A DNA stretch of 64,000 bases from Candidatus Neomarinimicrobium atlanticum (GTDB taxonomy: Bacteria > Fidelibacterota > Marinisomatia > Marinisomatales > Marinisomataceae), in contig AQSA01000008.1 of NCBI GenBank assembly GCA_000402815.1, positions 1,592-65,591 of the forward strand. The letters are read 5' to 3'. Numbering within the stretch: position 1 is the stretch's first letter; the number at the start of each line of letters is the position of its first letter. Below, piece by piece: positions 23,982 through 41,030 of the stretch. The notes under the pieces were generated by a model. It did no database searches. It was given only the letters and a program-made list of their open reading frames with translations, and was not told the DNA's origin. Both the position numbers and the translations under genes were made by a program.

Positions 23982-23992
23982 AAAAAATATAT

Positions 23993-24721
23993 CTAAGTTT
24001 CAAGTAAGTCTGTTCCCTTAGACATAACCCAAATAGTTCCAACGAGACTTAAAACTGCTACTTTTTGATAGGTTGCATGCATCGTTAAGGATTCAATTGA
24101 TTTCCAAGGCGCTGGACCAATCTCAAGAAAGACTATATATCCGGCAACAATTAAAGAACAAGTAAAAAGAGCATATGTAACGTTTTTTAAGCCTTTTGAG
24201 TAAAAAAGGTATGCATATATACCTAAAGTCAGCAAAGCGCAGTTAAACACTGAATTTGCGAAGAAAATATGAAGGGAATATAGAGATGGTACATCAGCCG
24301 GCGTAAAAACAACTCCAAGCAAACTAATAGATCCAAATGCAGCTGAAATTTTAGCTACAATACTTATTTTAGGTTTATCTTTTGAAAAATACTCTGCAGC
24401 ATTAAAAAGATAATAAAATGAAGCAATGATTTGAGTTAACATTCCCATTGAAAATAAAACAATAGATATGGTGTTATCAGCACCAGAATGGCTAGTTGTA
24501 CGACCTAAGTCACTTATAAAATTTGTAAAAAAGTTATAGTAGAGTGTTTGTTTTTCAATATAGTTTCCACCACCATAAAAGAATGCTGCTAAAGTGAGTA
24601 GTCCGATATAGGAGAGTAGTAGTCTCCTTGTATTTTTACCTAGTGTATTTCTCATATTCTCCCAATTATACATAACACATATTATACGTAAAACCTGTAA
24701 AACAGGTAAATAACAGGTCAT
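23993..24721 (-). CDS. Multi-pass membrane protein, paralog 2 (tandem duplicate of 23283..23981)
   Basis: Collinear similarity to paralog 1 ('YYNFFTNFISDLGRTTS', 'FTPADVPSLYSLHIFFAN'). The true start is probably an internal Met ('MYNWENMRNT' or 'MRNT'). Confidence 0.55.
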   Translation of the reverse strand: MTCYLPVLQVLRIICVMYNWENMRNTLGKNTRRLLLSYIGLLTLAAFFYGGGNYIEKQTLYYNFFTNFISDLGRTTSHSGADNTISIVLFSMGMLTQIIASFYYLFNAAEYFSKDKPKISIVAKISAAFGSISLLGVVFTPADVPSLYSLHIFFANSVFNCALLTLGIYAYLFYSKGLKNVTYALFTCSLIVAGYIVFLEIGPAPWKSIESLTMHATYQKVAVLSLVGTIWVMSKGTDLLET

Positions 24722-24837
24722 TTAAGTCTTTATCAAAATATTGATAAGTGTTATTAAAGTGTTTTATGATATTATCAAGCTATTAAACCCAAAATAATTT
24801 ATTTACAATTTTTTCAGTATCAACTAAATATTATTAG

Positions 24838-26769
24838 CTAATTATTTCTGATCCACATTGTATCTTTTTCACATTTCTCAATCATTTCTTTATCTGAAAA
24901 TGACACTTTATGAATTGTTCCAAGCTCTTTGTGTTCAAATTCAACAAACTCTTTATGTTCAAATTCAGCTTTAGAGAGATTTTGATCTGTATCTTTGCTT
25001 TCTTTTGAATGAGGTTTGATATCTTTGGCAAGTTCGGGCTTTTGATTTTTGTTTTTCCAATTTTCTATACATAAATCGATTATATATTCTTTATTTTTGA
25101 GATTTTTTAAGTAAAAAGCCCCTGTATTATTTTTTTCTAACTCACTAGCCTTGAATCCTTGAATATCTTTGTCCTGCTCCAAATTATTAATAAACTCTTT
25201 AAATTGATTTTTTAGTAGAGCATTAAAGTCTTTTTGAAACTTTCGCCAATTTTGAGTTTTAATAAATTCAGATTTAAAGCTTGCATAATGCTCTTTAGAA
25301 TCAAGTGATGATGATTTTTTAATAGCATGCTTTTCATTTTGAATGGCAATGATGTCGTCAATAATTAGATTTAAATCTTCTTCTAGGCCTATTTTTTTTA
25401 TTTTTTGGTTTTTTATATCTTTTTTAATTGATTCTATTTCTTTTTCGTAACCTTTTAATTCTGGATTTAATTGATCTTTCCTTTCTTTATACCTTCTTTT
25501 TAATTCAGCTGTGTTGGAAGTAAATCCTTTAATTTCTTTAATCATATCAAAGTGTTCTTTAATAAATTTAAATTGTGTGTTCCAGACAGATTCATTTACT
25601 GGGATACTGAAAATAAGAGATATGTAGTTATCTCCAAATTCAATATCGGAAATTTTATGTGAAGTAACTGAAACTATATAGTGGATTAAACTTTTGATGT
25701 AGAATTGTTTTTGAGTTCTACTGTAAAGATGCATCATTCCCAATAAGAAGTAAACGGTGATTGAATAATTTTTAGTAGAACTATCAAGAGATTCTTTTAG
25801 TTTTTCAGTTCCAATATCTGAAAGATTTATAAAGTCATTTACAATTTTAGACAACCTTCTTTTCGGATTGTAAATAACGCCCTCATTATGAACAAATCTC
25901 ATTTCATCTAATTCCAATATAAAATTGTCGACTTCTGATTGCAGTTGTTTTGTATCTACTTTTTTCTCTCTAAAACCCTTTATAAGAACACCTAAGTAAT
26001 GATTTTTACCTTGAAAAGATCTAGTTGAAAAATAATTCAATGAAATGCTAAGAACTTCATTTAATAATAAAAAATAATTTTGGTATTCTTTATCTATAGA
26101 TTTACTGATTTCAATAAAAAATTTACTATCTCTATTGCTCTGAAAAAGAACTAACTGTAATAGTATTGGAATAGAAAATTCAGGTTCTAAATCTTCAGAT
26201 GAAATTCGCCATTGATTTTCACGCCAAATTATTTTTGATAAGAAGTTTTCATACTCCTTTTTTTCATAAAAATAAGAAATGCCTAGCCCTCCTTTTAATG
26301 CATCTGTTTCTGCAACATTGATTATATTTCTCTTAAATTGAGAAAAATTACAAATCTCAAGATGCTCTATTGAGCTTTTTATTTCTATTGCAACAAAATT
26401 ATTTAATGTTTTAAAACTACTCCATCTTTCATTATGTTTTTCTTTTCCAAACCATCCAATTTTATCAACTTCAGATAAATCAATTCTTCCCTCATTTCTT
26501 AGTTTTAATATTGTTTTTTCTGAAAGTTGAAGACAAAAATCTCCTGGTAAAAATCTGACTTCATTTTTTTTTGAAAAATCTTCGAAGGATTGCAGGGAAT
26601 CCCAATCAATATAATCAGATATAATTTCTTGTGATGTCAGTATTTTTTGGTCAACACTAGCAAGTTGCTCTTTAGAAACTGTTCTAACGAGATTCCTTTC
26701 TAAATCAAATGATTTATTAGATTTATTAAAAAGGGAGGTCATCATCGTCATCATCGTCCTCATCATCAT
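24838..26769 (-). CDS. Uncharacterised 643-aa protein: N-terminal region with a possible PD-(D/E)XK-like 'D..EIK' motif, and a Lys/Glu-rich coiled-coil C-terminal third
   Basis: Long ORF whose 5' end overlaps the helicase 3' end by 17-44 nt (candidate starts 26742-26769). 'IDLSEVDKIG..(23 aa)..NNFVAIEIKSS' resembles a nuclease core. No Walker A motif. C-terminus 'ELKRRYKERKDQLNPELKGYEKEIESIKKDIKNQK'. No family recognised. Confidence 0.6.
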   Translation of the reverse strand: MMMRTMMTMMTSLFNKSNKSFDLERNLVRTVSKEQLASVDQKILTSQEIISDYIDWDSLQSFEDFSKKNEVRFLPGDFCLQLSEKTILKLRNEGRIDLSEVDKIGWFGKEKHNERWSSFKTLNNFVAIEIKSSIEHLEICNFSQFKRNIINVAETDALKGGLGISYFYEKKEYENFLSKIIWRENQWRISSEDLEPEFSIPILLQLVLFQSNRDSKFFIEISKSIDKEYQNYFLLLNEVLSISLNYFSTRSFQGKNHYLGVLIKGFREKKVDTKQLQSEVDNFILELDEMRFVHNEGVIYNPKRRLSKIVNDFINLSDIGTEKLKESLDSSTKNYSITVYFLLGMMHLYSRTQKQFYIKSLIHYIVSVTSHKISDIEFGDNYISLIFSIPVNESVWNTQFKFIKEHFDMIKEIKGFTSNTAELKRRYKERKDQLNPELKGYEKEIESIKKDIKNQKIKKIGLEEDLNLIIDDIIAIQNEKHAIKKSSSLDSKEHYASFKSEFIKTQNWRKFQKDFNALLKNQFKEFINNLEQDKDIQGFKASELEKNNTGAFYLKNLKNKEYIIDLCIENWKNKNQKPELAKDIKPHSKESKDTDQNLSKAEFEHKEFVEFEHKELGTIHKVSFSDKEMIEKCEKDTMWIRNN

Positions 26770-28264
26770 TATTTTCTGTATCTTCCCCTTCTGTTACTGG
26801 CCAAAAATTATCACGCTGAATTTTCTGAATCTTATTATTTATATCTTCTTCAGACTGTTCTAATGGATTTTCTCCTGCGTTAATAAAAAGGAAATTATCT
26901 GTATCTTTTTCAATTCCTTCTGGTAATCTGCAATATACACCAGAATCATTTCTGTCTACATAACTACATATTACTCTTTTCTTAGCTCTGGTAAATACCA
27001 TAAAAAATGTATTTTTAATAATAGCTTCTTTTTGTTCAGGGCTAAGCTCAAATCCTGTTCTCCACATATCATCTTCTTTATTGTCCTTAAACATAGATTT
27101 AAAATCTAATTTTTTCTCCTCTGTATCAGGAAAAAATAAATAATCAAATTGTAAGCCTTTTAAGCTATGAACAGTAGAAAAAAGAACAAGCTTAGGATTT
27201 TTAAAATCGAAATTATTTAGCATACTTTGTCCAGATTTTTTAGTTGCAAGCTCTCCCTTGATACCTCTTTTTAGTAGTTGATTTCTTATATGCTTTACAT
27301 TATCAAGGTGAGTGTGGGTTACTACAATTTGACTATCAGATCCATCATCTTTAGATTGAATAGCTTTAATTCTTTCCGCTATTGCATCATACTGATGATC
27401 TGTGCTTTCTGCATGAATAAAAAGGTTTGGTTGATTTCTAGCTCCTGAAATTGCGGTTTGATTTCTAGTTATGGGCTTTAAAAAATTATCTTTTTTTTCT
27501 CTTAGCTCAATAACGTCAAATTTATTCTCTGTTATAAAATATTGTGCAAGCACGGCAATCGTTACAGGGTTTCTAAAATTAACATCAAGAGAATGTCTAT
27601 CTAGCGTTGTATCATTATTGAGTTTTTTAAAACCTTCATGAGTTTCATGCATTCCATGCCCAAATATTTGCTGAGTGGCATCTCCTAACCATACTTGATT
27701 CTCAGATACTGCTTTAACAGTTATCAACATATTCTCTTCAAAATCCTGACATTCATCTATCAAAACTGTTTTACCGTATGGATTAACCCCAATTGATTTT
27801 GCAACTTTATTTGCAATCTCTTTTTTGGTCATGGTTGAATCAAGACCATATTCTTCCCATGCTTTAAGTCTATTATATCTTTTTGCAAAAGGATGATTAG
27901 ATAGCCAGCTTGAATCTTTTTCTATAGCGTCATAATCTCTTAAACATTCCCAAATACGCATTCTAGGTTCAGCTCTGGTATGAAAATATTGTACTGAATT
28001 ACTTAAATCTTCGTCAATATGATTAGTATTTTTAAATTGATCTTGAACAAATTTCTCTAACATTTTTGTAAAAACTATAAACTTAGCTGAAACTTGCTTT
28101 TTATCTAGCCTTATAGCTGCCATTGTGGCTAGCAGAGTTTTTCCTGCACCAGCACATCCAGTTAATAATATACTACGACCTGGTGACGAGGCAGTATCAA
28201 CAAATTTTTTTTGTTTATCAGTTAAATCGTTGTAAATAATGTTTGAAAATGCTTTGTCATTCAT
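26726..28264 (-). CDS. UvrD/Rep-like superfamily-1 DNA helicase with acidic poly-Asp C-terminal tail
   Basis: SF1 motifs readable in order: Q 'LTDKQKKFV', I 'LLTGCAGAGKTLL', II 'VLIDECQDF', III 'VWLGDATQQIFG', IV 'VNFRN', V 'STVHSLKGLQFDYLF', VI 'FMVFTRAKKRV'. Tail 'EGEDTENNDDEDDDDDDDLPF'. Confidence 0.85.
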   Translation of the reverse strand: MNDKAFSNIIYNDLTDKQKKFVDTASSPGRSILLTGCAGAGKTLLATMAAIRLDKKQVSAKFIVFTKMLEKFVQDQFKNTNHIDEDLSNSVQYFHTRAEPRMRIWECLRDYDAIEKDSSWLSNHPFAKRYNRLKAWEEYGLDSTMTKKEIANKVAKSIGVNPYGKTVLIDECQDFEENMLITVKAVSENQVWLGDATQQIFGHGMHETHEGFKKLNNDTTLDRHSLDVNFRNPVTIAVLAQYFITENKFDVIELREKKDNFLKPITRNQTAISGARNQPNLFIHAESTDHQYDAIAERIKAIQSKDDGSDSQIVVTHTHLDNVKHIRNQLLKRGIKGELATKKSGQSMLNNFDFKNPKLVLFSTVHSLKGLQFDYLFFPDTEEKKLDFKSMFKDNKEDDMWRTGFELSPEQKEAIIKNTFFMVFTRAKKRVICSYVDRNDSGVYCRLPEGIEKDTDNFLFINAGENPLEQSEEDINNKIQKIQRDNFWPVTEGEDTENNDDEDDDDDDDLPF

Positions 28265-28286
28265 AGTAGTGCCCTTTTTTTCATTG

Positions 28287-28315
28287 CTCTAAATAGTTCT
28301 ATATATAGAGTTACG
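28287..28315. promoter_or_regulatory. Operator-like imperfect palindrome CTCTAAATAG-tt-CTATATATAGAG(TTACG) in the divergent promoter region
   Basis: Read directly. The left arm read on the minus strand is CTATTTAGAG, 22-32 nt upstream of the helicase ATG. The right arm is the first copy of a 17-nt direct repeat (next feature). Confidence 0.35.
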
Positions 28316-28404
28316 ATAAGAAAAAGATATTGTTTCAATATAAATATAATTTAAGAATTTTAAAATTATAAAAAATTATCATTTAAATATTCTTCTACAT
28401 ATAA

Positions 28405-28421
28405 CTATATTTAGAGTTATG
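28405..28421 (+). promoter_or_regulatory. Second copy of the 17-nt motif CTATATTTAGAGTTATG, ending in the PLD-helicase start codon
   Basis: 15/17 identical to 28299-28315 (CTATATATAGAGTTACG). Both divergent operons therefore carry CTAT(AT)TTAGAG in sense orientation in their 5' leaders. Confidence 0.35.
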
Positions 28422-30497
28422 TCTTTAAGTAATATTAATTTTAAAAACTATTATAGCGGTTCTATGGGACATAATCTATTAGATTTACTATATACCCCCT
28501 GCCTTAAAAATTCTATTAAATATGATAGAGTCGCAGGATTCTTTAGCCCTAAAGTTCTTTCAGCTGCTGCTGAAGGAATGGCATCTTTTGTTCAAAATGG
28601 CGGAAAATATAGACTAGTTTTTAGTAAGCATTTGTTCAAAGAAGAAGATTATGATGCTATTAAGGATGGATATACAAAAGAGTTTGAAGACGACTTCCTG
28701 TCCTGTATTGATGAACTAAGACAATCAATGAAAGATCGTCCAAGAAAAATATTGGGATGGATGATTGCCAATGGACATTTAGAGATTAAAATAGCATTCA
28801 AAACACCTGACAATGCCCTTCTTCACTCTAAATGGGGTAATTTTGAGGATAATAGCGGAAATAGGCTAAACTATAGCGGTTCAATTAATGAAACCGAAAA
28901 TGCCTGGGTTAGACAAGTAGAATACTCTGATGTTTTTTGTAGTTGGAACGAAGGTGATAAATCTAGAGTTGATCAAAAGTTTGATTTATTTGAGACTATT
29001 TGGAATAATGAAGCCCCCAATATAAATGTTTTGGAGTTTACAGAGGTTCAAAAAAATCAATTTAGAATCGATAATGATATAGAAAATCAACAACAATTCA
29101 GTGAGCAATGCGAATTATATGACAGCGAAAGAGCTGAAGAGAAAGAAAATCCTCCTCTCTCCCCTTACAAATACCAACAAGAAGCAATAGATGCATGGAT
29201 AGATAATGATTATAAAGGTATTTTTGCTTTGGCGACAGGTTTGGGCAAAACATTCACCTCCCTGTTTTGCGTTAAAGAATATGCTAAGTTGCATGATAGT
29301 AAATATCTTTGTGTAATTGTATGCCCTTCTGAGTCATTAATCTATCAATGGAAGTCTGAGGTAGAAAAAATTTTAGATAAGACCCCATTGGTGTTAATGG
29401 ATGAAAGTAATTGGTCTGTTAAGCTAAAAGAAGAAATTGGTAGTTTAAATAATGATTATGAAGATAACCTTGTCTGCTTAGTAACATATCATACTTATTT
29501 TAAACCAAATTTTACATCAAGCATTGAGCAATGCGATAAAAATAAGATTATTATTTGTGATGAAGTGCATAATTCTGGAGCAAAAACTTGGAGAAAAGGC
29601 TTAATAGATGATTTTGATGCACGAATAGCTCTAAGTGCTACACCAAAAAGACATTTTGATGATGAAGGATCTAGTATAATTGAAGAATATTTTGATGGAG
29701 TAATAATAGAAAGAGATTTGGAATGGGGTATTAATAATGGCCCCAAAGAAGGTGAAACATTCCTTTCTCCTTACTACTATTCTGCCAAAGAAATAGATTT
29801 AACAGAAGAAGAGCTTGTTGACTATAGAAAAGTTACGCAAGCCATGGTAATTAATTATAATCCAAATGTATTGTTACAAGATGATAAATGGATGGGACTT
29901 GCTAATAAGCGAGCAAAAATTATTAAGAATGCTGAAAACAAGCTTGTTGAACTTAAACTGTTGCTAAAGAAGTTGGACTATAATCTTGATGGTGGTTTTA
30001 TTTTTGCTGGAGGTAGAAAGAATGACGAAGAAGGAAGTAGTTTTTTTGAAAAAGTACAATCCATCCTTGAAAAAAATAAAATGAAATATAGAAGATTTAT
30101 ATCAGACGACGCTAAAGAAGACCGTAAAACAGTTCTTAATCAGTTTAAAAGCAAAAGACTTGATGCTATACTGGCTATAGACTGTCTTGATGAAGGTATT
30201 GACATTCCTAATGCAGAAACAGCAATCCTGTTAAGCAGTTCAAGTAACTCAAAACAGTATATACAAAGAAGAGGAAGAGTTTTAAGAGTTCCTAAAGACA
30301 ATAAGAATAAAATAGCAAAGATTTATGATTTTATTTGCATCCCTCCTCCTGCCGAAAAAAAGTCTTTTTTTATGGAACAGTCATTAATAAAAAAACAACT
30401 AAACAGATTTAAAGAATTTTCAGATATATCGCTTAATAAAGATGAAAATCAAAAATTAATTGAAAAAATTGCAGATAATTGGGAAATTGAACTATGA
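28419..30497 (+). CDS. HKD (phospholipase-D-family) nuclease domain fused to an SF2 ResIII/DEAD-DEAH-type helicase
   Basis: N-terminal PLD block 'YDRVAGFFS'..'LLHSKWGNFEDNSGNRLNYSGSINET' (HxK..GSxN). Helicase motifs I 'ALATGLGKTF', Ia 'VIVCPSESLIYQW', II 'IICDEVHNSG', III 'ALSATPKR', VI 'QYIQRRGRVLR'. Confidence 0.85.
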   Translation: MSLSNINFKNYYSGSMGHNLLDLLYTPCLKNSIKYDRVAGFFSPKVLSAAAEGMASFVQNGGKYRLVFSKHLFKEEDYDAIKDGYTKEFEDDFLSCIDELRQSMKDRPRKILGWMIANGHLEIKIAFKTPDNALLHSKWGNFEDNSGNRLNYSGSINETENAWVRQVEYSDVFCSWNEGDKSRVDQKFDLFETIWNNEAPNINVLEFTEVQKNQFRIDNDIENQQQFSEQCELYDSERAEEKENPPLSPYKYQQEAIDAWIDNDYKGIFALATGLGKTFTSLFCVKEYAKLHDSKYLCVIVCPSESLIYQWKSEVEKILDKTPLVLMDESNWSVKLKEEIGSLNNDYEDNLVCLVTYHTYFKPNFTSSIEQCDKNKIIICDEVHNSGAKTWRKGLIDDFDARIALSATPKRHFDDEGSSIIEEYFDGVIIERDLEWGINNGPKEGETFLSPYYYSAKEIDLTEEELVDYRKVTQAMVINYNPNVLLQDDKWMGLANKRAKIIKNAENKLVELKLLLKKLDYNLDGGFIFAGGRKNDEEGSSFFEKVQSILEKNKMKYRRFISDDAKEDRKTVLNQFKSKRLDAILAIDCLDEGIDIPNAETAILLSSSSNSKQYIQRRGRVLRVPKDNKNKIAKIYDFICIPPPAEKKSFFMEQSLIKKQLNRFKEFSDISLNKDENQKLIEKIADNWEIEL

Positions 30498-30700
30498 AAA
30501 ATAAAGAAAATATAATAGATAAAAATCTTGAAATTATGCAGTCTCAAGCAGAAAAAGTGGATAGAATAGAGCATTTTAATTTTTTAAAACACCTAATAAA
30601 TCTTCAGTCAATGCATAAATATAACGTTATAACACAATTTGAAGCTGACTATATGAGTACATTAAGAGCGCAGCTTAAAAAGTATGAAGATAGAGGTTAA
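30494..30700 (+). CDS. 68-aa helical protein of unknown function, translationally coupled on both sides
   Basis: Its ATG overlaps the helicase TGA (ATGA at 30494-30497). Its TAA abuts the next ATG (TAAATG at 30698-30703). Confidence 0.5.
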   Translation: MKNKENIIDKNLEIMQSQAEKVDRIEHFNFLKHLINLQSMHKYNVITQFEADYMSTLRAQLKKYEDRG

Positions 30701-32788: not shown

Positions 32789-33240
32789 GTAAATCTAAAT
32801 ATATAATTTTAAAAGAAAGATATTACACAGATGAAAAAAAGACTGAGCCCACATGGCTAGAAGTTAAGAATCATCCTATATGGAAAAAGATTACAGGAAA
32901 AGAAATAGATAGATTGACAATTTCAATGATGGCAACAGTGATTGGGTATCATTACAAGTTACGTAAAACAGGAACTTTTGGGTTGAGTATTGGAGGATGG
33001 CTTCAAAATCCACATACCGGTAAAAGAAACGAAAAACAAGAAAAAGCAATTGCTATTATGGTTGCAATTGCTGTTAAAGAAGAGAGTATTGAAATTCTTA
33101 ATGAGGATGCTAATGATATTCAAAATATTTCACATGAGTATGGAAATGGCGGTGTTTACAAGTTACTTGAAATAATTAATCAAGAAAGTGAAAAAGTTAT
33201 ATTTGATACACTACAAAGTATTATGAGAAAGTCTATTTAA
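32785..33240 (+). CDS. 151-aa protein of unknown function, last gene of the four-gene operon
   Basis: ATGA start/stop overlap with the ATPase (32785-32788). Predicted mostly helical. It occupies the position that dndE has after dndD, but I cannot demonstrate homology. Its 3' end overlaps the convergent C5-MTase gene by 30 nt. Confidence 0.5.
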   Translation: MSKSKYIILKERYYTDEKKTEPTWLEVKNHPIWKKITGKEIDRLTISMMATVIGYHYKLRKTGTFGLSIGGWLQNPHTGKRNEKQEKAIAIMVAIAVKEESIEILNEDANDIQNISHEYGNGGVYKLLEIINQESEKVIFDTLQSIMRKSI

Positions 33241-34491
33241 AAGCGTTTTTCCTATATTTTCTACACAACCTATTACCAGTGCATTTCCCATTAAAAAAGC
33301 TCGTTTACTATCAAGTAAATTATAAACAGTACCATCCTTATTTTTACCAAATTCTGTAAAATTATCTGGAAACATATTTAATCTCTCTAGTTCTAGCGGT
33401 ATTAGTCGTCTAGACTTACCTGAGGATGTCTTAATAAGATGTTTGCTTCTAGATGCAGACTTACCTCCTTCGGCAGTTAAAATCGTGCGGGAGGGCTTAT
33501 TTAGAGCGTCATACAAGTTCATTTTTCCTATTCTTATATCATACTTAAATCCTGATTTAGACGTTCTTGCAAATGTTCCACCAAATTTATGGTGTTCCCA
33601 TTTTTTAATATCTTCTTTGCTTACATAATATTCATCTGGAATATTTTTATCTTTTTCAAGAATATCATTTAAAACCTTATACTTGCCTTTATAATTATTC
33701 TTGATATCATAGGTTAAATACTCCCTATTATGATTAATTCCATAATTGAAGAATTTTTTTGGAGAGCTATATTTAAAAGCGCTAAGTGTACCCTTTGGCG
33801 CAGGATTAAATGCTTTGAAAACTTCATCTAATGATTTATTTCCCAGACTATACATTAGATCTAGTGAATCGTTGCGATTTTTCATGAAAGGAAAGGCCTC
33901 TTCTAATATTAATTTATTCCCTTTTTTGAATTTTTTATAGATTGGAGTATTATTCTTAAAGCAAAAAAAGAAAACTCTCTTTCTTCGCTGAGGAAAACCA
34001 TATAGAGAAGAATCAACTACCATCCATTCCACCGTGTATCCTCTGTCATTTAATGAGGCAAGCATATAGGCAAAATCTCTGCCTTTTTCCAATGCAGGAG
34101 ATTGTAATAATCGATTTACATTTTCAAATAAACAATAAGAAGGTTTTTTCTTGTCAATAACTTCTAAGATTTTATACCATAAATTTCCCTTTTTTCCTTC
34201 TAAGCCCTTCGATGTAGCTAGCGTTTGAGCAACTGAAAAATCTTGGCATGGGAATCCTGCTGTTAAAAGTTCAAAATCTGGAATGTCGTGATTTTCTTTA
34301 ATAACTGTATCAATATCAGTATTTGATAGCGTTTTATCGCCAAAATGATAGCGATATACGTCAGCTGCGGCTTGATTTCTAGGAGTAGATGGTTCATATT
34401 GATTAGTCCATACACATTCAAACCTACTATCTGCTTTTTCAAGCCCAACTCTAAATCCACCTACCCCGCCAAACAATTCAACAAAACGCAT
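33211..34491 (-). CDS. DNA (cytosine-5)-methyltransferase
   Basis: Motif I 'VELFGGVGGF', IV 'GFPCQDFS', VI 'ENV', VIII 'QRRKRVFF', IX 'RRLIPLELERLNMFPDNFT', X 'GNALV'. A variable target-recognition region lies between VIII and IX. Confidence 0.9.
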   Translation of the reverse strand: MRFVELFGGVGGFRVGLEKADSRFECVWTNQYEPSTPRNQAAADVYRYHFGDKTLSNTDIDTVIKENHDIPDFELLTAGFPCQDFSVAQTLATSKGLEGKKGNLWYKILEVIDKKKPSYCLFENVNRLLQSPALEKGRDFAYMLASLNDRGYTVEWMVVDSSLYGFPQRRKRVFFFCFKNNTPIYKKFKKGNKLILEEAFPFMKNRNDSLDLMYSLGNKSLDEVFKAFNPAPKGTLSAFKYSSPKKFFNYGINHNREYLTYDIKNNYKGKYKVLNDILEKDKNIPDEYYVSKEDIKKWEHHKFGGTFARTSKSGFKYDIRIGKMNLYDALNKPSRTILTAEGGKSASRSKHLIKTSSGKSRRLIPLELERLNMFPDNFTEFGKNKDGTVYNLLDSKRAFLMGNALVIGCVENIGKTLLNRLSHNTL

Positions 34492-35009
34492 TAAAACTCT
34501 TTATTTGACCAAGCCATAAATTGATCGAGGTTTAAAATTTTTAAATCTTTAGAAAAATTATCCTTTACGTACAGTTTATTTTTCCAAGCTTCTTTTAGCC
34601 AAGTTACAGCAGGAATAATAGCATCACCACCATGTACAAAAACACACATAGGTTCTGGAAAATTATTTTCAATAAAATTCATATAAAAGTATGGAATTTT
34701 CTCAGATACGCTACCAGATCCTTGTTGCCACTTACACTCTAATCGAAAATATAAATCATCTTTAAAAATTCGATATTCTGAAAAACATCTGGGATTATTG
34801 TAAATACTCTTGTAGTAATTTCTTCCTTTGACAATCACTCCACCTGGATATAGTTCGTTAATAAGGCTTGGCCAATCATTATGGCGCATTATTTTATCCA
34901 TCTCTTTTGAATGAATAACAGTTAAACCCTTATCTTCAAGTTGGGTAATAATATGCCTTTCAAATATTTGACCATTAATATTTGCTTGTGTTCCACCTTG
35001 TAATACCAT
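34491..35009 (-). CDS. Small (172-aa) PD-(D/E)XK-fold nuclease, probable restriction endonuclease partner of the C5 MTase
   Basis: 'NGQIFERHI' (helix Glu) .. 'FKDDLYFRLECKWQQGSGS' (D..ExK core). Its TAA overlaps the MTase ATG by 1 nt (TAATG). Not Vsr-like (no 'CFWH' block). Confidence 0.55.
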   Translation of the reverse strand: MVLQGGTQANINGQIFERHIITQLEDKGLTVIHSKEMDKIMRHNDWPSLINELYPGGVIVKGRNYYKSIYNNPRCFSEYRIFKDDLYFRLECKWQQGSGSVSEKIPYFYMNFIENNFPEPMCVFVHGGDAIIPAVTWLKEAWKNKLYVKDNFSKDLKILNLDQFMAWSNKEF

Positions 35010-35016
35010 ATTTCTC

Positions 35017-35841
35017 CTAATAGTTTGTAATAATTAGCTCAGAGACCTTCTTTCTAGAACTGCTTTTTGATCCTACCGAACGACTTACTAATATCTGCTT
35101 CATATTATATCCATTGTATATTTCTTTTGTTTTAGGCGTTCCTGAATTTGACATCATAAATTTTGCTCCCATATCCGTTAATTTATCGCAAAATCCTTTA
35201 AGATCATAGTGCATTTGTTCCGTGAAGTCATCCTTAGCATATTTAGTAAAAGATGCACTATTGACTGGTAGGTATGGAGGATCAAGATATATAAAACTTT
35301 CTGAATCTAATTTAGGTAAGATATCTAGATAGGAGTGACATCCAAACTTAATTTTTTTGAATATATTTGAACAATTTCTTAGATTATCTTTATCACATAT
35401 AGTCACTTTTCCTGAGCTGGTCCTCCCCTTTGGAACATTAAACTCTCCCTTACTATTTTCTCGATAAAGTCCATTGAAACAAGTTTTATTTAAATAAATA
35501 AAAAGTGCTGCTATTTCATACCTGCTATCAAGCCCTCTATTAAATTCCGTTCTTTTTTCGTAATAGTAGTCTTCATTTATATGATGATTCTGTTCATGTA
35601 TTTTTAAATGATTGATAATTGATTCAACATCAGCCTTAATACATTTGTAGGTAAGAATCAATTTAGGGTTAATATCAGATAAATAGGCGTTATGAGGCTG
35701 TAAATTAAAAAACATCCCACCTCCACCAATCATTGGCTCAAAATAATCGCGATTACTGAAATCTGATGGTAGATAAGCTTTTAAAGTATTTGCAAGGGTA
35801 TATTTACCTCCAGCCCATTTAATGAATGGTTTACTAGTCAT
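35017..35841 (-). CDS. Dam-family (MethyltransfD12, alpha-class) N6-adenine DNA methyltransferase
   Basis: 'FIKWAGGKY', 'FEPMIGGGGMF' (AdoMet motif I), 'YLDPPY' (motif IV). Its start overlaps the DUF2130 stop by 8 nt. Confidence 0.9.
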   Translation of the reverse strand: MTSKPFIKWAGGKYTLANTLKAYLPSDFSNRDYFEPMIGGGGMFFNLQPHNAYLSDINPKLILTYKCIKADVESIINHLKIHEQNHHINEDYYYEKRTEFNRGLDSRYEIAALFIYLNKTCFNGLYRENSKGEFNVPKGRTSSGKVTICDKDNLRNCSNIFKKIKFGCHSYLDILPKLDSESFIYLDPPYLPVNSASFTKYAKDDFTEQMHYDLKGFCDKLTDMGAKFMMSNSGTPKTKEIYNGYNMKQILVSRSVGSKSSSRKKVSELIITNY

Positions 35842-36910
35842 CTAAGTCGTCGTAAAATGATGAGTCAATATTTTCTGGTAAACCAACATCGCTCTCAGGA
35901 GAAATATACTTGATTTCTATTAATGAACTTTCTAAAGTATTTTTAATCACCTCAAATGACTTTCGCTCCTCTTTTATGAATCGTTTAAAGACAACTTCTT
36001 TTTTATCGATTCTACTTTTTTGTTCATCAATTTCGTCCCAAATATTTGACATTTGGTTGATAAATTTTTCACTCGTTATATAATCAAATACTTCTTCAGG
36101 AGCACTAGTTTTTCTCGCTTGAGCAACGTCAATCATTGAACTTTTTTCTATAATACCTTGCCTAGTTATGGCAAGTGCGCTTATATAATATCTAGGTTCC
36201 ATTCTACAAATCAGGATATTTTTCTGCTTAAAGAAAGGTAAAGAACCGTCTACATTTTTTGGATATGATCTTGTAATAATTACCCCTGTATCTATACTAC
36301 TATCTTTCATATCTGCTTTCAATTTAGGTATCCATCCATTTGAGAAACTTTTAGTATTTTTTACCTCAATAGCAATTTTAGCAGTCGCTTTCCCTTTTCT
36401 TTCATTGATTTTTATAATCCAATCTGCTCCACTTTTACCCCTCTTTACTTCTTCAATAACATCATCCGGGAAAGCTTGTTCTAGTTCTCTTTGTACAATA
36501 TTCTCTGCAGCTTCTCCGGAAACTTGAACTTGGGATCGACTTCCGCTTGCACCCACATCCTCATTAAGATTTGCAACTTTTGATGTCAATTGATTATTTA
36601 ACTCCACTAGAGAAGCTTGCTTTTGTCTATTGAGTAACTCATTTGCTTTTACTGCTTCCTGAATAGCTTTTTGTTGATCTTGTTCTTGGGCTTTGACTGC
36701 TGCGTCAACAGCTTTTTGTTGTTCTTGTTCTTTGGCTTTGACTGCTGCGTCAATAGCTTTTTGTTGATCTTGTTCTTTGGCTTTGACTGCTGCGTCAATA
36801 GCTTTTTGTTGATCTTGCTGTTGGGCTTTGACACCCTCTTGAATTTCTTGTTTTATTGAATCTTGAATATCAACGTTTTCACCACAATGAGGACATTTAA
36901 TTTTGTTCAT
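35834..36910 (-). CDS. DUF2130-like protein: N-terminal zinc ribbon, repetitive coiled coil, C-terminal restriction-endonuclease-like domain
   Basis: 'MNKIKCPHCGENVDIQ'. Four 15-aa units 'QDQQKAIDAAVKAKE'. C-terminal 'GEAAENIVQRELEQAFPDD..GADWIIKI..KIAIEVKNTKSFSNGWIPKLKADM' (D..EVK core). Overall RmuC-like architecture. Confidence 0.7.
   Translation of the reverse strand: MNKIKCPHCGENVDIQDSIKQEIQEGVKAQQQDQQKAIDAAVKAKEQDQQKAIDAAVKAKEQEQQKAVDAAVKAQEQDQQKAIQEAVKANELLNRQKQASLVELNNQLTSKVANLNEDVGASGSRSQVQVSGEAAENIVQRELEQAFPDDVIEEVKRGKSGADWIIKINERKGKATAKIAIEVKNTKSFSNGWIPKLKADMKDSSIDTGVIITRSYPKNVDGSLPFFKQKNILICRMEPRYYISALAITRQGIIEKSSMIDVAQARKTSAPEEVFDYITSEKFINQMSNIWDEIDEQKSRIDKKEVVFKRFIKEERKSFEVIKNTLESSLIEIKYISPESDVGLPENIDSSFYDDLDD
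36665..36844. repeat. Four tandem in-frame copies of a 45-nt unit inside the DUF2130 gene
   Basis: Units at 36665-36709, 36710-36754, 36755-36799 and 36800-36844 ('agctttttgttgatcttgttctttggctttgactgctgcgtcaat'). There are only a few substitutions between the first three units, a degenerate half-unit upstream, and no spacers. Confidence 0.9.
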
Positions 36911-36937
36911 TTAACTTCTCCAGTTAATATTAATGAT

Positions 36938-37132
36938 TTAATCGTCATAATCTCTATTCACTCCAGCAATATCATCTGCTATATCTCCAAAAAAGAACCA
37001 AGAGACAAGATAGCATACCCAAAACGCACCGATAGTAAGCCAATATCCTTCCATAAACACAAGTTCTTGTAAATTTGGTGTCATATATAGAATGAAAGTT
37101 AAAACGACTAACAGTATTGTAATACAGCCCAT
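36938..37132 (-). CDS. Possible 64-aa two-TM membrane protein with acidic tail
   Basis: 'CITILLVVLTFILYM' and 'WLTIGAFWVCYLVSWFFF' helices; tail 'DIADDIAGVNRDYDD'. Directly upstream of the DUF2130 gene on the same strand. No homology recognised. Confidence 0.35.
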   Translation of the reverse strand: MGCITILLVVLTFILYMTPNLQELVFMEGYWLTIGAFWVCYLVSWFFFGDIADDIAGVNRDYDD

Positions 37133-37175
37133 GCTAAAATATATTAAATATTAATGTATGTATCCCTACTTAAGA

Positions 37176-37445
37176 TTATGCGCATATAACTTGAGCAATA
37201 TTAAAGTCTAAAAACTTATCGAAATCAACAGCTATAATTTTAAATTCCATGGTATACAGTGTTTTGCAATACTTGCATCCAACACGATATAAGATTACTT
37301 CATCCCCCTCTTTATTTAAATCTAGTAATGAAAAGTATACACCAGTTTCTTTAAGTGGCTTTTCACACACTAGGCATGAATGTCCTGTTGTAAGTTTTTT
37401 TGCTTTTTTAAATTCATCAGAATTTGGATCAATACATTGTATCAT
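37176..37445 (-). CDS. 89-aa putative zinc-ribbon protein
   Basis: Two CxxC pairs ('CLVCEKPL' .. 'CKYCKTL'); RBS 'aaaaggagac' upstream of the ATG. Confidence 0.4.
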   Translation of the reverse strand: MIQCIDPNSDEFKKAKKLTTGHSCLVCEKPLKETGVYFSLLDLNKEGDEVILYRVGCKYCKTLYTMEFKIIAVDFDKFLDFNIAQVICA

Positions 37446-37566
37446 ATAGGTAAGTCTCCTTTTTGGTTAGTTATGTTGTGCGAGGGATAAAAAGGATTAT
37501 TTCAAATCGTAATAATATCTCTACTATATTAACGGCATTCTAAAATTTAATTACAAGTTTTATATT

Positions 37567-37905
37567 TTATTTTTTAGGTTTTTCGACAGTTAATTCAAAA
37601 AATTTAGCTGCTCCACAAGTACGTGCTCCTTTTACAACTACATCAATCCTGCAAATTCTAAGCACCAGTTGATTAATGTTATATCGTTGCGTTAAATAAA
37701 TCAATTCATTTCTCTTTGCTAATGATTGATTAGAAGTTTTAAAAGGAAATGGTGTAACTTGTCCACCTGCACTTTGTCCATCCATCCAGTAATCTATTAG
37801 AATCTTTGCACTTCCTTTTTCTTTGATCTCTTTATTAATCCTTGATCGATAGGATGAATCAATTAATCCTGCAACTAATTTATAATTACTTATTACCATT
37901 TTCAT
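37567..37905 (-). CDS. 112-aa hypothetical protein
   Basis: Strong RBS ('aaaggagag' 5-6 nt before the ATG); no family recognised. Confidence 0.45.
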   Translation of the reverse strand: MKMVISNYKLVAGLIDSSYRSRINKEIKEKGSAKILIDYWMDGQSAGGQVTPFPFKTSNQSLAKRNELIYLTQRYNINQLVLRICRIDVVVKGARTCGAAKFFELTVEKPKK

Positions 37906-37930
37906 AAACTCTCCTTTGTTGTTTTCAGGA

Positions 37931-37960
37931 CAGAAATAAAAAAACCCTCATCAGAGGGTT
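37931..37960 (-). terminator. Rho-independent terminator (minus-strand orientation) about 25 nt upstream of the 112-aa gene
   Basis: Perfect 8-bp stem 'aaaccctc/gagggttt' with a 4-nt loop. Read on the minus strand it is followed by 'tttttttattt'. Confidence 0.65.
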
Positions 37961-37965
37961 TAAGA

Positions 37966-38053
37966 TATTATCTACTAGAGAATATTGTAGATAATTAGCA
38001 TGATATTAATCAAACAAGGAATATAACAATGTCAGAAAAAAACTAATTATCTA
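37966..38053. repeat. Three copies of a 9-12 nt motif (ATTATCTAC at 37966-74; inverted GTAGATAATTAG at 37986-97; CTAATTATCTAC at 38042-53)
   Basis: Read directly. The middle copy is perfectly complementary to the distal copy (12 nt) and to the proximal copy (9 nt), so two mutually exclusive hairpins, or three protein-binding sites, are possible. Confidence 0.6.
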
Positions 38054-38062
38054 CACTTTTCA

Positions 38063-38092
38063 AATTTTAAGTAGCACATCTGTCACTTGACA
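38063..38092 (-). promoter_or_regulatory. Putative sigma70-like promoter on the minus strand (-35 TTGTCA, 18-nt spacer, -10 TAAAAT), overlapping the palindrome TGTCACTTGACA
   Basis: The hexamers are the reverse complements of 38087-38092 and 38063-38068. The predicted start near 38055 would give a ~125-nt leader ending at the 37931-37960 terminator. Confidence 0.3.
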
Positions 38093-38187
38093 AACCACCG
38101 TGGCATTTTGCTCGGTTGGTGGGAATATTCCCGTCCTGATGATACTTTAATTTAATTTATTATATCTTTTAAAAAAGCAAAATTATA

Positions 38188-38430
38188 CTATATTTTTTCT
38201 GAAGCAGATATAAGTGATTTGAGTTTATTTATATTGCTATTAATTAAAGACTTTTTGAGATCTACATCATGAATACTTGATATGATAGAATGTTTTTCTT
38301 TTTCATACCTTAATCGTATTGTTCGTCTTTTTTCTTTAAAATGTTTTGCTTCTTTGGTTACAGATTTAAGTTCTGCATTTAATTCAGCTAACATTTTTTT
38401 TAATTCTTTTTTATTTAATTTTGAACTCAT
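38188..38430 (-). CDS. 80-aa Lys-rich coiled-coil protein of unknown function
   Basis: ORF 'MSSKLNKKELKKMLAELNAELKSVTKEAKHFKEKRR..'. No homology recognised. Rightmost island gene. Confidence 0.35.
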   Translation of the reverse strand: MSSKLNKKELKKMLAELNAELKSVTKEAKHFKEKRRTIRLRYEKEKHSIISSIHDVDLKKSLINSNINKLKSLISASEKI

Positions 38431-38499
38431 AAATAAAAATATAAATATTTTAGAACATTTGTTATAAAAAATATTATATAAAGTATGAAAATGAAAAAA

Positions 38500-39495: not shown

Positions 39496-39592
39496 ATTAA
39501 AATTTATAAAAAATTTGAAACAAAAATGAAAATTAAATGTATATAGAATATGAAAGCGAAATCAAGAGGCACAAACAACGGAGTTAAAATAA

Positions 39593-40186: not shown

Positions 40187-40221
40187 GCAGTAAGATTTTC
40201 TCAGTGTTACCTTCAAACAAG

Positions 40222-41013: not shown

Positions 41014-41030
41014 ATGAGGTTGAAATATAT

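What the first reader, a model, noticed from the sequence alone, without database searches (positions are those of the whole stretch)
24722..38499. ~13.7 kb defence island without integrase, inserted between core genes
Gene content flips from conserved translation and metabolism genes to helicases, nucleases, two DNA MTases, an SMC-like ATPase and at least 6 unassignable small ORFs, then back again at the SDR gene. By eye the island DNA and its proteins look more A+T- and Lys/Asn/Ile-biased than the flanks; I have not computed this. There is no integrase, transposase, flanking tRNA or long direct repeat, so the acquisition mechanism is unclear. The island packs at least three nuclease-containing modules in three differently oriented transcription units.
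Basis: partly seen in the sequence, partly recalled or inferred. Interest (0 to 1): 0.6.

Follow-up and report, generated by a model that had tools for sequence, protein, structure and literature searches.

The report
Defence island beside the chromosome's dif site
The block is a real, strain-specific anti-phage defence island in a marine SAR406 (Marinimicrobia) bacterium, and it sits in a slot that starts exactly at dif, the chromosome's dimer-resolution site at the replication terminus; in wild populations this slot holds a different set of restriction and defence genes in almost every strain.

Summary
Window 24693-38499 has 30.0% GC against 33.2/33.9% in the flanks, is richer in Lys/Asn/Ile, and carries no integrase, transposase, flanking tRNA or long repeat.

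New findings:
1. The left edge is a unique 28-bp dif site (24665-24692). GC skew and core-gene orientation flip there, so this is the replication terminus.
2. The right edge is the SDR stop codon.
3. The same leuS-memB-dif...SDR slot is empty in one complete relative genome. About 110 other contigs hold unrelated cargo, 0.85-6.5 kb in the 18 complete slots and dominated by restriction-modification and other defence genes. Metagenome assemblies break at dif.
4. X belongs to a rare family with no detectable fold match.
5. The rest is a Dam-type methylase with a PD-(D/E)XK nuclease, a DUF2130 protein, and semi-conserved small genes that include a SAM-I/IV riboswitch.
6. Tailed phages carry tandem copies of this dif. 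One copy has the window's rare central region.

How cargo is exchanged is inferred, not shown. I favour a crossover confined to dif plus homologous recombination at SDR. Classical IMEX is disfavoured because there is no second dif.

The parts
23993..24655 (-). memB, the conserved membrane-protein gene that forms the left (XerD-arm side) flank. Its real ATG lies 9 nt from dif; the longer ORF called to 24721 runs through dif.
   Evidence: The start context 'atgagaaatacactaggtaaa' is conserved in relatives. memB is 74-89% identical in L001-L007.
24665..24692 (-). dif-like site TTTACGTATAA-TATGTG-TTATGTATAAT (XerC arm, 6-bp centre, XerD arm). This is the left boundary of the island.
   Evidence: It is the best match to known dif sites in the window. 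The PWM score is 31.5 bits against a maximum of 16.6 in 20 shuffles, and the site is unique. The same site is at the same place in L001-L008, L011 and L012 and in 120 or more metagenome contigs. GC skew flips here.
24693..24718 (-). Conserved hairpin element (CTGTT...CCTGTTTTACAGGT) abutting the XerC arm.
   Evidence: The CTGTTWWHCAG core abuts dif in 29 of 114 loci and occurs 4 times elsewhere in about 0.6 Mb. The stems covary.
24838..26769 (-). X, a 643-aa protein from a rare unknown family. It has a roughly 450-aa globular N-terminal part and a C-terminal coiled coil, and it is always found downstream of an SF1 helicase.
   Evidence: No Pfam, PADLOC or NCBIfam hit. Only 40 representatives among 1.84 billion proteins. 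The AF2 model has pLDDT 79.6 and Foldseek found no PDB match (best E 0.5).
26726..28264 (-). SF1 (UvrD / Schlafen-group-3-like) helicase of 512 aa, the partner of X.
   Evidence: UvrD_C 1e-10 and SLFN-g3_helicase 4e-7. Only partial GajB hits. Walker A GCAGAGKT and VLIDE motifs are present. It is conserved upstream of X in L217-222, L233, L230, L236 and the P0029 contig.
28419..30497 (+). PbeA, a PLD(HKD)-like N-terminal domain fused to an SF2 helicase.
   Evidence: PADLOC PbeA 3.8e-194, full length. ResIII 1e-27, Helicase_C 3e-16 and a weak PLDc_2 hit. TIGR04095 at 363 bits, below its cutoff.
30494..30700 (+). PbeB-position small protein (68 aa).
   Evidence: Assigned by position and size (66 aa in the type system, PMC6459918). 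It is 46% identical to the small ORF at the same position in L233. No HMM hit.
30701..32788 (+). PbeC, a DndD-like ABC/SMC-type ATPase with a coiled-coil insert.
   Evidence: PADLOC PbeC 6e-47, against DndD 3e-29. AAA_23 4e-13. Walker A is present and there is no CxC motif.
32785..33240 (+). PbeD-position protein (151 aa).
   Evidence: Assigned by position and size (152 aa in the type system). It is 55% identical to its counterpart in L233. No HMM hit, and the AF2 model was unusable at pLDDT 38.
33211..34491 (-). C5 cytosine DNA methyltransferase, convergent with pbeD and overlapping it. It is the likely modification partner of the Pbe cassette.
   Evidence: DNA_methylase 2e-58. The same convergent arrangement is present in L233, at 69% identity.
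34491..35009 (-). PD-(D/E)XK nuclease (172 aa), a candidate type II restriction enzyme.
   Evidence: PF20472 PDDEXK_11 5.8e-24. Its stop and start abut the two MTase genes.
35017..35841 (-). Dam-family N6-adenine DNA methyltransferase.
   Evidence: MethyltransfD12 2e-57. TIGR00571 at 285 bits, above its cutoff.
35834..36910 (-). DUF2130 protein with an N-terminal zinc ribbon and four 45-nt tandem repeats.
   Evidence: DUF2130 5e-29. Repeats at 36639-36863. A 32%-identical homologue lies in the same slot in L006.
36938..37132 (-). o64, a small membrane ORF and a recurrent resident of the slot.
   Evidence: Homologues are present in 31 cargo loci, often directly after SDR.
37176..37445 (-). o89, a small Cys-rich ORF and a recurrent resident of the slot.
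   Evidence: Homologues are present in 6 cargo loci. It is 92% identical in L228, where it follows o112.
37567..37905 (-). o112, an unknown 112-aa protein downstream of the riboswitch.
   Evidence: 20 homologue clusters, all annotated as hypothetical. It sits next to SDR in L226-L229.
37942..37961 (-). Intrinsic terminator between the aptamer and o112, taken to be the riboswitch expression platform.
   Evidence: 8-bp stem followed by a T-run.
38045..38147 (-). SAM-I/IV riboswitch aptamer.
   Evidence: Rfam RF01725 at 42.3 bits, above the gathering score of 41.1. It is also found upstream of o112 homologues in L092 (48.4 bits) and L115 (45.8 bits).
38188..38430 (-). o80, a small Lys-rich coiled-coil ORF with no homologues found.
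38500..39495 (-). SDR/epimerase gene, the conserved right flank of the slot.
   Evidence: Homology with 15 or more cargo contigs starts at w38492-38501. 18 complete slots run from dif to SDR. Its nucleotide identity between lineages is 84-88%, against 74-78% for leuS and memB.

Best explanation
What it is. Window 24693-38499 is the strain-specific cargo of a hypervariable defence slot. The slot lies between the chromosomal dif site (the replication terminus, directly after leuS-memB) and an SDR gene in a SAR406/Marinimicrobia genome.

The cargo has three parts:
(a) One conserved seven-gene cassette. A C5 cytosine methylase would mark self DNA. PbeABCD (a PLD-helicase, a small protein, a DndD-like ATPase and a DndE-position protein) would scan and attack unmarked DNA. 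A tightly linked SF1 helicase plus the unknown protein X would act as an added sensor or effector pair.
(b) A type II restriction-modification pair (Dam-family methylase plus a PD-(D/E)XK nuclease) and a DUF2130 protein.
(c) Semi-conserved small genes next to SDR, one of them behind a SAM-I/IV riboswitch.

How it got there (inferred). No integrase is needed, because cargo is swapped as whole cassettes between strains. The left crossover is confined to the invariant 28-bp dif. It is most simply catalysed by the host XerC/XerD recombinases acting on the donor and recipient dif, or else by RecA limited to that block of perfect identity. The right crossover is ordinary homologous recombination in or beyond the SDR gene. 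This leaves a single dif, a razor-sharp left junction and a homogenised SDR gene.

Shown: the dif site, the terminus position, the variability of the slot, the cargo content and the conservation of the cassette.
Inferred: the functions of the defence genes and the recombination mechanism.
For: dif and terminus
- There is one 28-mer, at 24665-24692. It scores 31.5 bits against 16.6 or less in shuffles.
- It is 20/28 identical to the Haemophilus dif used as a query. Its counterparts in relatives reach 22-23/28 against the Haemophilus and E. coli dif.
- It is conserved in position in 10 relatives.
- GC skew and core-gene orientation flip at it in the window and in L005-L008.
- In the complete chromosome OZ243041.1 it lies at about 54% of the sequence.

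Slot variability
- The slot is empty in L005 and holds different defence cargo in L001, L003, L006 and L007.
- 120 or more metagenome contigs carry the site, and most end 3-100 nt from it, the signature of an assembly-graph branch point.
- 18 complete slots measure 0.85-6.5 kb.
- 20 loci of the window's own lineage carry 11-12 cargo types, and three of them have 100% identical flank stubs.
- 285 cargo ORFs fall into 207 clusters. The top Pfam families are DNA methylases, ResIII, HsdS/HsdR, GmrSD, GIY-YIG, Schlafen helicases, DndB and AIPR.

Left crossover at dif
- 41 of 42 locus pairs with 97% or more identical XerD-side flank carry unrelated cargo.
- L121 and L183 share cargo at 91% identity but their flanks are only 76% identical.

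Right crossover by homology
- All cargo contigs regain homology at the SDR stop codon, with no att-like motif there.
- SDR is 84-88% nt identical between lineages whose leuS and memB are 74-78% identical.

Foreign DNA does use this dif
- Tailed phages (TerS, TerL and portal by PHROGs) carry 1-3 tandem dif copies.
- Their central regions include TATGTG, the window's rare allele, and TAAAGA, the allele in L001, L007, L143 and L166.

Cassette
- L233 has C5MT-PbeDCBA-Hel-X(-HNH)-dif in the same order and orientation, at 32-69% aa identity.
- The P0029 contig has PbeCBA divergent from Hel-X.
- A Pbe system with a cytosine methylase in place of dnd genes is a described variant (PMC10853773; PMC6459918).
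Against: - No step of the recombination has been observed, and xerC/xerD/ftsK could not be checked because only the window and short loci were available.
- The sharp junction at dif would also arise under pure homologous exchange: dif is under strong purifying selection, and streamlined genomes delete spacers.
- The higher similarity of SDR could reflect constraint rather than transfer. It rests on only three genome pairs with long flanks.
- Only one pair (L121/L183) directly shows cargo more similar than its flank.
- The window and L156 share cargo but differ in the XerC arm and centre, so dif alleles do not simply travel with cargo.
- The defence functions of Pbe, Hel-X, the nuclease and DUF2130 are inferred from homology and context only.
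- PbeC lacks the CxC motif, and PbeB/PbeD are assigned by position only.
Confidence: 0.45

Rival explanations
1. Pure homologous replacement. After DNA uptake, cargo is swapped by RecA-dependent double crossovers anywhere in the conserved flanks (leuS-memB-dif on one side, SDR and beyond on the other). Being next to dif is incidental: the terminus is a permissive place with low gene dosage and convergent genes. This resembles the integrase-free core defence hotspots of Pseudomonas.
For: - There is no second dif-like site and no relic. No site of 14 bits or more was found in about 0.6 Mb of chromosomal loci. The XerC-arm core occurs 9 times on the same strand and 10 times on the opposite strand in 383 kb of cargo.
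- There is no att-like motif at the SDR boundary.
- SDR is homogenised between lineages.
- Integrase-free defence hotspots between core genes are known (PMC10250203).
Against: - The left flank is not homogenised in the way SDR is.
- 41 of 42 pairs with near-identical flanks carry unrelated cargo, and L121/L183 share cargo but not flank. This suggests left crossovers cluster at or within dif rather than across the kilobases of available homology.
- Phage dif mimics sharing rare central-region alleles with chromosomes point to Xer activity on foreign DNA at this site.
Confidence: 0.35
2. Classical IMEX. The island, or each module, entered as a circular element carrying a dif-like attP and was integrated by XerCD, like CTX-phi, TLC or the gonococcal genetic island. 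The distal hybrid site was lost later.
For: - The island sits exactly at dif and has no integrase.
- Conserved residents lie near SDR and the most variable genes lie near dif, as accretion at dif would predict.
- Phages with dif-like sites exist.
- In Vibrio, dif-integrating prophages deliver defence genes (PMC12715192).
Against: - A defining feature, two flanking dif-like sites, was tested and not met in the window or in 95 cargo loci.
- The only half-site, at 37159-37186, is at chance level.
- There is no phage or replication gene in the island and no similarity to the dif-bearing phages.
Confidence: 0.1
3. Degraded prophage, ICE or transposon whose mobility genes have been lost.
For: The region has low GC and contains many small unknown ORFs.
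Against: - There are no structural, replication, conjugation, integrase or transposase domains.
- There are no terminal repeats.
- The same two boundaries are reused by dozens of unrelated cargos.
Confidence: 0.04
4. The block is not accessory. It is a vertically inherited core region that merely evolves fast.
For: A diverged version of the seven-gene cassette occupies the same place and orientation in another lineage (L233).
Against: - The slot is empty in L005.
- Cargo is unrelated in a strain 98.3% identical in the flank (L118).
- There are 11-12 cargo types within one lineage.
Confidence: 0.02

Closest known systems
Integrase-free 'core defence hotspots' (e.g. cDHS1/2 of Pseudomonas aeruginosa, PMC10250203; E. 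coli defence-island hotspots, PMC10121019)
   Same: A fixed slot between conserved core genes holds different defence systems in different strains. There are no mobility genes, and homologous exchange is suspected.
   Different: Here one boundary is the functional dif site at the replication terminus, and the junction is base-precise at the XerC arm. The host is an uncultured, streamlined marine phylum. Variability is high enough to break metagenome assemblies at dif.
IMEX: integrative mobile elements exploiting Xer (CTX-phi, VGJ-phi, TLC-phi, gonococcal genetic island; defence-carrying dif prophages of Vibrio, PMC12715192; PMC9226527)
   Same: Foreign DNA sits directly at chromosomal dif, has no recombinase of its own and carries defence genes. 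Phages with dif-like sites exist in the same habitat.
   Different: There is no second dif-like site, no phage or replication genes and no tandem arrays. The dif-bearing phages found here are tailed phages with directly repeated sites, not filamentous phages.
pdif modules of Acinetobacter plasmids (PMC7399989, PMC9771954)
   Same: Discrete accessory gene modules are bounded by Xer sites and shuffled between replicons without their own recombinase.
   Different: pdif modules are flanked by pairs of oppositely oriented sites on plasmids. Here a single chromosomal dif bounds one side only.
PbeABCD / CxC-ABC-DndE-anchored systems with cytosine methylase (PMC6459918; PMC10853773)
   Same: Same gene order and sizes: PbeA 692 aa, a small 68-aa protein, an ABC ATPase of 695 aa and a 151-aa protein. 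PbeA and PbeC give strong PADLOC matches. A C5 methylase stands in place of dnd genes.
   Different: PbeC has no CxC zinc-hook motif. There are no dndCDEA genes within 64 kb. The cassette is extended by a conserved divergent SF1 helicase plus X pair that these papers do not describe.
Gabija (GajA/GajB) and other helicase-plus-effector two-gene defence systems
   Same: A UvrD-like SF1 helicase is encoded next to a partner protein of about 600 aa in defence contexts.
   Different: The partner X has no OLD/TOPRIM or any other recognisable domain. The helicase matches GajB models only partially (7e-15 over about 80 residues).

Membership tests
Genomic (defence) island / hotspot | Present or absent, or with different content, at the same locus in close relatives | tested here: met
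   The slot is empty in L005. Cargo is unrelated in L001, L003, L006, L007 and L118. There are 11-12 cargo types in 20 loci of the same lineage.
Genomic (defence) island / hotspot | Composition deviates from the flanks | tested here: met
   GC is 30.0% against 33-34%. No equal-sized flank window is as low. K+N+I is 27% against 21%.
Genomic (defence) island / hotspot | Enriched in defence genes | tested here: met
   for the window. The Pfam census of 207 cargo clusters is dominated by R-M and defence families.
Chromosomal dif site | 28-bp site with 11-bp imperfectly palindromic arms around a 6-bp centre, and one copy per chromosome region | tested here: met
   TTTACGTATAA-TATGTG-TTATGTATAAT is unique in 64 kb at 31.5 bits, against 16.6 or less in shuffles.
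Chromosomal dif site | Located at the replication terminus (GC-skew switch, convergence of gene orientation) | tested here: met
   Skew is positive to the left and negative to the right in the window and in L005-L008. Core genes converge there.
Chromosomal dif site | Recombined by XerC/XerD with FtsK | not testable with these tools
   No whole genome was accessible to look for xerC, xerD or ftsK, and no biochemistry was possible.
IMEX | Integrated at dif and lacking its own recombinase | tested here: met
IMEX | Element flanked by two dif-like sites (attL/attR) | tested here: not met
   There is no second site of 14 bits or more in the window or in chromosomal cargo loci. XerC-arm cores occur 9 times on the same strand against 10 on the opposite strand.
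IMEX | Circular or episomal form carrying attP | not tested
   This needs read-level data. Only tailed-phage contigs with dif-like sites were found.
PbeABCD / CxC-DndE-anchored system | PbeA: HKD/PLD nuclease fused to an SF2 helicase | tested here: met
   PADLOC PbeA 3.8e-194 over residues 2-679. ResIII and Helicase_C are present. The PLDc_2 hit is weak (E 0.008) and there is a single HxK at H136.
PbeABCD / CxC-DndE-anchored system | PbeC: DndD-clade ABC ATPase with a coiled coil | tested here: met
   PADLOC PbeC 6e-47, AAA_23, and Walker A GNNGFGKS.
PbeABCD / CxC-DndE-anchored system | CxC zinc hook at the coiled-coil apex (PMC10853773) | tested here: not met
   The protein has only two Cys (positions 51 and 290) and no CxC motif.
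PbeABCD / CxC-DndE-anchored system | Small protein (PbeB) and DndE-like PbeD in operon positions 2 and 4 | tested here: inconclusive
   ORFs of 68 and 151 aa lie at the right positions and are conserved in L233 at 46% and 55%. There is no HMM hit, and the PbeD model had pLDDT 38.
PbeABCD / CxC-DndE-anchored system | Linked modification module (dndCDEA, or a cytosine methylase in the described variant) | tested here: met
   No dnd genes were found among the window genes that were annotated. A C5 MTase lies convergent and overlapping, and this is conserved in L233.
Type II restriction-modification | DNA MTase adjacent to a nuclease-fold protein | tested here: met
   Dam family at 285 bits, above its cutoff. 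PDDEXK_11 at 5.8e-24, 7 nt downstream.
Type II restriction-modification | Cognate sequence specificity of the MTase and the nuclease | not testable with these tools
   This needs methylome and cleavage assays.
Gabija | GajA (OLD-family ATPase-TOPRIM nuclease) partner next to GajB | tested here: not met
   X has no PADLOC, Pfam or NCBIfam hit. The helicase gives only partial GajB matches.
SAM-I/IV riboswitch (RF01725) | Covariance-model score at or above Rfam's gathering threshold, in a 5' leader position | tested here: met
   42.3 bits against a threshold of 41.1. L092 scores 48.4 and L115 scores 45.8, both upstream of o112 homologues. A terminator follows the aptamer.

The most novel reading that the evidence does not exclude
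In streamlined marine SAR406 bacteria the chromosomal dif site would work like the attI of an integron for defence genes. The housekeeping XerCD recombinase would catalyse the exchange or capture of defence cassettes at the replication terminus, so no dedicated mobility gene is needed. Tailed phages would exploit the same site with tandem dif mimics. Polymorphism in the dif central region, such as the window's TATGTG, would be a scar or an escape allele of that conflict. In addition, the SF1 helicase plus X pair would be a new defence module that plugs into Pbe, type I R-M and type III CRISPR loci.
Probability: 0.3. Interest if true: 0.85.

Novelty: new variant of a known kind. Interest (0 to 1): 0.66.

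Why it matters
Defence islands without mobility genes are common, but how they turn over is an open question. This case offers a concrete, testable anchor. The hypervariable slot begins at the base next to the XerC arm of dif, in an abundant uncultured ocean phylum, and natural-population data (contigs breaking at dif) are already available.

If Xer or dif-limited recombination drives the exchange, a universal housekeeping system would double as a gene-capture device, and the dif neighbourhood would become a place to mine new defence systems in uncultured bacteria.

Practically, the result explains why SAR406 MAGs fragment at this point. It also yields candidates for experiment: the helicase-X pair (a rare family with no Foldseek match in the PDB), the extended methylase-Pbe cassette, phages carrying tandem dif mimics, and a SAM riboswitch inside an R-M hotspot.

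Tried and rejected
- Flanking direct or inverted repeats as att sites. Only chance-level AT-rich matches, the memA/memB paralogy and an intragenic tandem repeat turned up.
- tRNA target. The only tRNA is at 61.6 kb.
- Second dif. The candidate at 38457 is 18/28 identical by hand comparison with the Marinimicrobia consensus, lies in AT-rich sequence and is in inverted orientation. The half-site at 37159-37186 has a good XerC arm only. Neither is supported, because XerC-arm cores are not strand-enriched across 383 kb of cargo and no site of 14 bits or more exists in the chromosomal loci.
- L001 genes of similar size (632 and 501 aa) as homologues of X and the helicase. They are unrelated: GmrSD and Schlafen/AlbA.
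- Prophage remnant. Neither blastn nor tblastx found island-to-phage similarity beyond the dif itself.
- dnd/ssp modification genes elsewhere in the window. None were found.
- PbeD as a DndE-like protein. There is no HMM hit and the model was unusable (pLDDT 38).
- PDB sequence search for the PD-(D/E)XK nuclease and for DUF2130. Nothing was found.
- Literature search for a dif-adjacent defence hotspot in SAR406. None was found in the held library.

Full report
**1. Organism and layout**

LeuS (20862-23303) is 92% identical to its counterpart in a Marinimicrobia single-cell genome and 76-90% identical in other SAR406/Fidelibacterota genomes, including the complete 969,550-bp chromosome OZ243041.1.

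The left flank encodes NusA, IF-2, RbfA, TruB, S15, PNPase, MsrA and LeuS, all on the + strand. The right flank encodes ThrRS, IF-3, L35, L20, PheST, ZapA, FolD and others, down to an SDR gene, almost all on the - strand. Core genes therefore converge on the region. GC skew is positive to its left and negative to its right.

**2.

Island GC is 30.0% against 33.2% and 33.9% in the flanks. None of 46 equal-sized flank windows falls below 32.3%. K+N+I is 27.3% against 21.1% (p=3e-5). Tetranucleotide deviation peaks at 24-34 kb.

There is no tRNA nearby. There are no long flanking repeats. No integrase, transposase or dnd genes were found among the window genes that were annotated.

**3. The left edge is dif**

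A scan with known dif sites gave one top hit, TTTACGTATAA-TATGTG-TTATGTATAAT, at 24665-24692 on the - strand. The same site, with consensus TTTACGCATAA-TATATA-TTATGTATAAT, lies at the equivalent position just after leuS/memB in L001-L003, L005-L008, L011 and L012.

A position weight matrix scores the window site at 31.5 bits. The maximum in 20 shuffles is 16.6, and no second site exists in the window. GC skew flips sign at this site in L005-L008 as well. In the complete chromosome it lies at about 54% of the sequence. I therefore read it as the chromosomal dif at the replication terminus.

Sequence similarity between genomes is kept on the XerD-arm side, where memB starts 9 nt away. It is lost at the outer edge of the XerC arm.

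**4. The slot is hypervariable**

- L005 has nothing between dif and the next gene. L007 has hsdRSM plus an 1124-aa helicase. L006 has a C5 MTase, GIY-YIG and DUF2130. L001 has GmrSD and Schlafen/AlbA. L003 has a MazG-like gene.
Most of these contigs end 3-100 nt from dif on one side or the other. This is the pattern expected where an assembly graph branches.
- L118 is 98.3% identical to the window from 20281 to 24716 and then becomes unrelated. It carries a DndB/AlbA protein and a Dam MTase.
- Fifteen or more cargo contigs regain homology with the window at 38492-38501, the SDR stop codon. Eighteen complete slots measure 0.85-6.5 kb, so the window's 13.8 kb is the largest seen.
- Within the window's own lineage, 20 loci carry 11-12 cargo types.
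- The 285 cargo ORFs form 207 clusters. The commonest Pfam families are C5, N4/N6 and D12 methylases, ResIII, HsdS/HsdR, Eco57I, GmrSD, GIY-YIG, NOV_C, Schlafen helicases, DndB, AIPR and McrB.

**5. Anatomy of this island**

(a) The Pbe cassette. PbeA matches PADLOC at 3.8e-194 and PbeC at 6e-47. ORFs of 68 and 151 aa lie in the PbeB and PbeD positions. A C5 MTase is convergent with pbeD and overlaps it. Pbe systems paired with cytosine methylases instead of dnd genes have been described (PMC6459918; PMC10853773). PbeC here lacks the CxC motif.

(b) The helicase-X pair. Divergent from pbeA lie an SF1 helicase and X (643 aa).
- X has no Pfam, PADLOC or NCBIfam hit.
- It has only 40 relatives among 1.84 billion representative proteins.
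- Its structure model is confident (pLDDT 79.6) but finds no Foldseek match in the PDB.
- Every informative context of an X homologue places it directly after an SF1 helicase.
- With PbeCBA: the P0029 contig, where X is 38% identical.
- With the whole C5MT-PbeDCBA set, followed by an HNH gene and then a dif site: L233, at 32-69% aa identity.
- Next to HsdR: L217-L222.
- Between type III CRISPR accessory genes and cas1 in a 43.5%-GC genome: L230.
- As a bare pair: L236.

So 24838-34491 is one conserved seven-gene cassette, and Hel-X is a portable defence-associated pair.

(c) The rest of the - strand. The Dam-family MTase (285 bits) and a PD-(D/E)XK protein form a probable type II R-M pair. DUF2130 precedes them.

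(d) The SDR-proximal genes. o64 occurs in 31 cargo loci. o89 and o112 recur next to SDR in other strains. o112 follows a SAM-I/IV riboswitch (42.3 bits) with its terminator. The riboswitch is conserved in L092 and L115.

**6. How the cargo changes (inferred)**

Classical IMEX integration predicts a second dif-like site. None exists in the window or in the chromosomal loci. XerC-arm cores show no strand excess in 383 kb of cargo, 9 against 10. The SDR boundary carries no att-like motif.

The two flanks behave differently.
- On the left, 41 of 42 locus pairs with 97% or more identical flank carry unrelated cargo. L121 and L183 share cargo at 91% identity while their flanks are only 76% identical.
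- On the right, SDR is 84-88% nt identical between lineages whose leuS and memB are 74-78% identical.

This pattern fits cassette exchange with the left crossover confined to dif and the right crossover by homology in or beyond SDR. Whether XerCD or RecA makes the dif crossover cannot be decided from these data.

One further observation shows that foreign DNA uses this site. Tailed phages (TerS, TerL and portal) carry one to three direct tandem dif copies in a non-coding region. Their variant central regions include TATGTG, seen on chromosomes only in the window, and TAAAGA, seen in L001, L007, L143 and L166. No prophage was seen at chromosomal dif, and the island has no similarity to these phages apart from dif.

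**7. Comparison with known systems, and verdict**

The island resembles integrase-free core defence hotspots (PMC10250203) and shares its location with IMEXs (PMC9226527; PMC12715192). It fails the two-site test for IMEX membership. Searches of the held literature found no description of a dif-bounded defence hotspot in SAR406.

The added value is threefold:
- the dif anchor and the population-scale variability of the slot;
- the merging of two 'modules' into one extended Pbe cassette;
- the unknown Hel-X pair.

Novelty: a new variant of a known kind. The mechanism remains unproven.

Noticed in passing
L205:5685-5749 (also L210, L216, L186, L169, L209, L204, L207, L154, L208): Tailed-phage contigs (terminase and portal genes, GC about 34.5%) carry 2-3 direct tandem copies of the host dif, 3-11 nt apart, in a long non-coding region. 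The copies differ in their central regions. TATGTG and TAAAGA equal rare chromosomal dif alleles, including the window's.
   Followed up: partly
window 37567-38147 (- strand): A SAM-I/IV riboswitch (42.3 bits) with an intrinsic terminator precedes an unknown 112-aa ORF. The unit is conserved next to SDR in other strains. All genes from here down to the C5 MTase (33211) are co-oriented with gaps under 125 nt, so a SAM sensor may sit at the head of an operon that contains two SAM-dependent methylases.
   Followed up: partly
window 24693-24718 (- strand): A 26-nt element with a covarying hairpin (CCTGTTTTACAGG) abuts the XerC arm of dif. It is present in 29 of 114 metagenome loci whatever their cargo and is almost absent elsewhere. 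Its function is unknown; it could be an insulating terminator or an Xer accessory site.
   Followed up: partly
window 24665-24692 (- strand): The dif site itself reads TTTACG-N16-TATAAT, a 10/12 sigma-70-like promoter, and lies 9 nt upstream of the conserved memB start codon. dif may double as the memB promoter. Promoter-like matches are not above chance in this AT-rich DNA.
   Followed up: no
L081-L200 (metagenome contigs): Most contigs carrying this dif end within 3-100 nt of it. Short-read assemblies of SAR406 populations systematically break at the terminus, which will fragment MAGs there.
   Followed up: yes
L230:4473-8870 (GCA_013360295.1, 43.5% GC): A helicase plus X-family pair lies between type III CRISPR-Cas accessory genes (Cas02710, NE0113) and cas1, in an unrelated organism.
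   Followed up: partly
window 23283-24655: memA and memB are tandem paralogues (about 704-nt register, 87% identity in places). Relatives have one or two copies, and L002's second copy is only 47% identical.
   Followed up: no
window 36639-36863: There are four tandem 45-nt repeats inside the DUF2130 gene, encoding a repeated QQDQQKAIDAAVKAKE-like segment after an N-terminal zinc ribbon.
   Followed up: no
window 38500-43700: This is a second variable stretch to the right of the island. L005 lacks SDR and the genes at 40249-43700 (Kdo-kinase-like, glutaredoxin, DoxX, CDGSH, HxlR, DUF1295). L225 has a PKD/cadherin-repeat protein of more than 1000 aa in place of SDR. L226 adds RmuC and a glycosyltransferase.
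   Followed up: partly
window 38500-39495 against L006 and L086: The SDR gene is about 10 points more similar between lineages (84-88% nt) than leuS or memB (74-78%). This suggests it is repeatedly co-transferred with cargo.
   Followed up: partly
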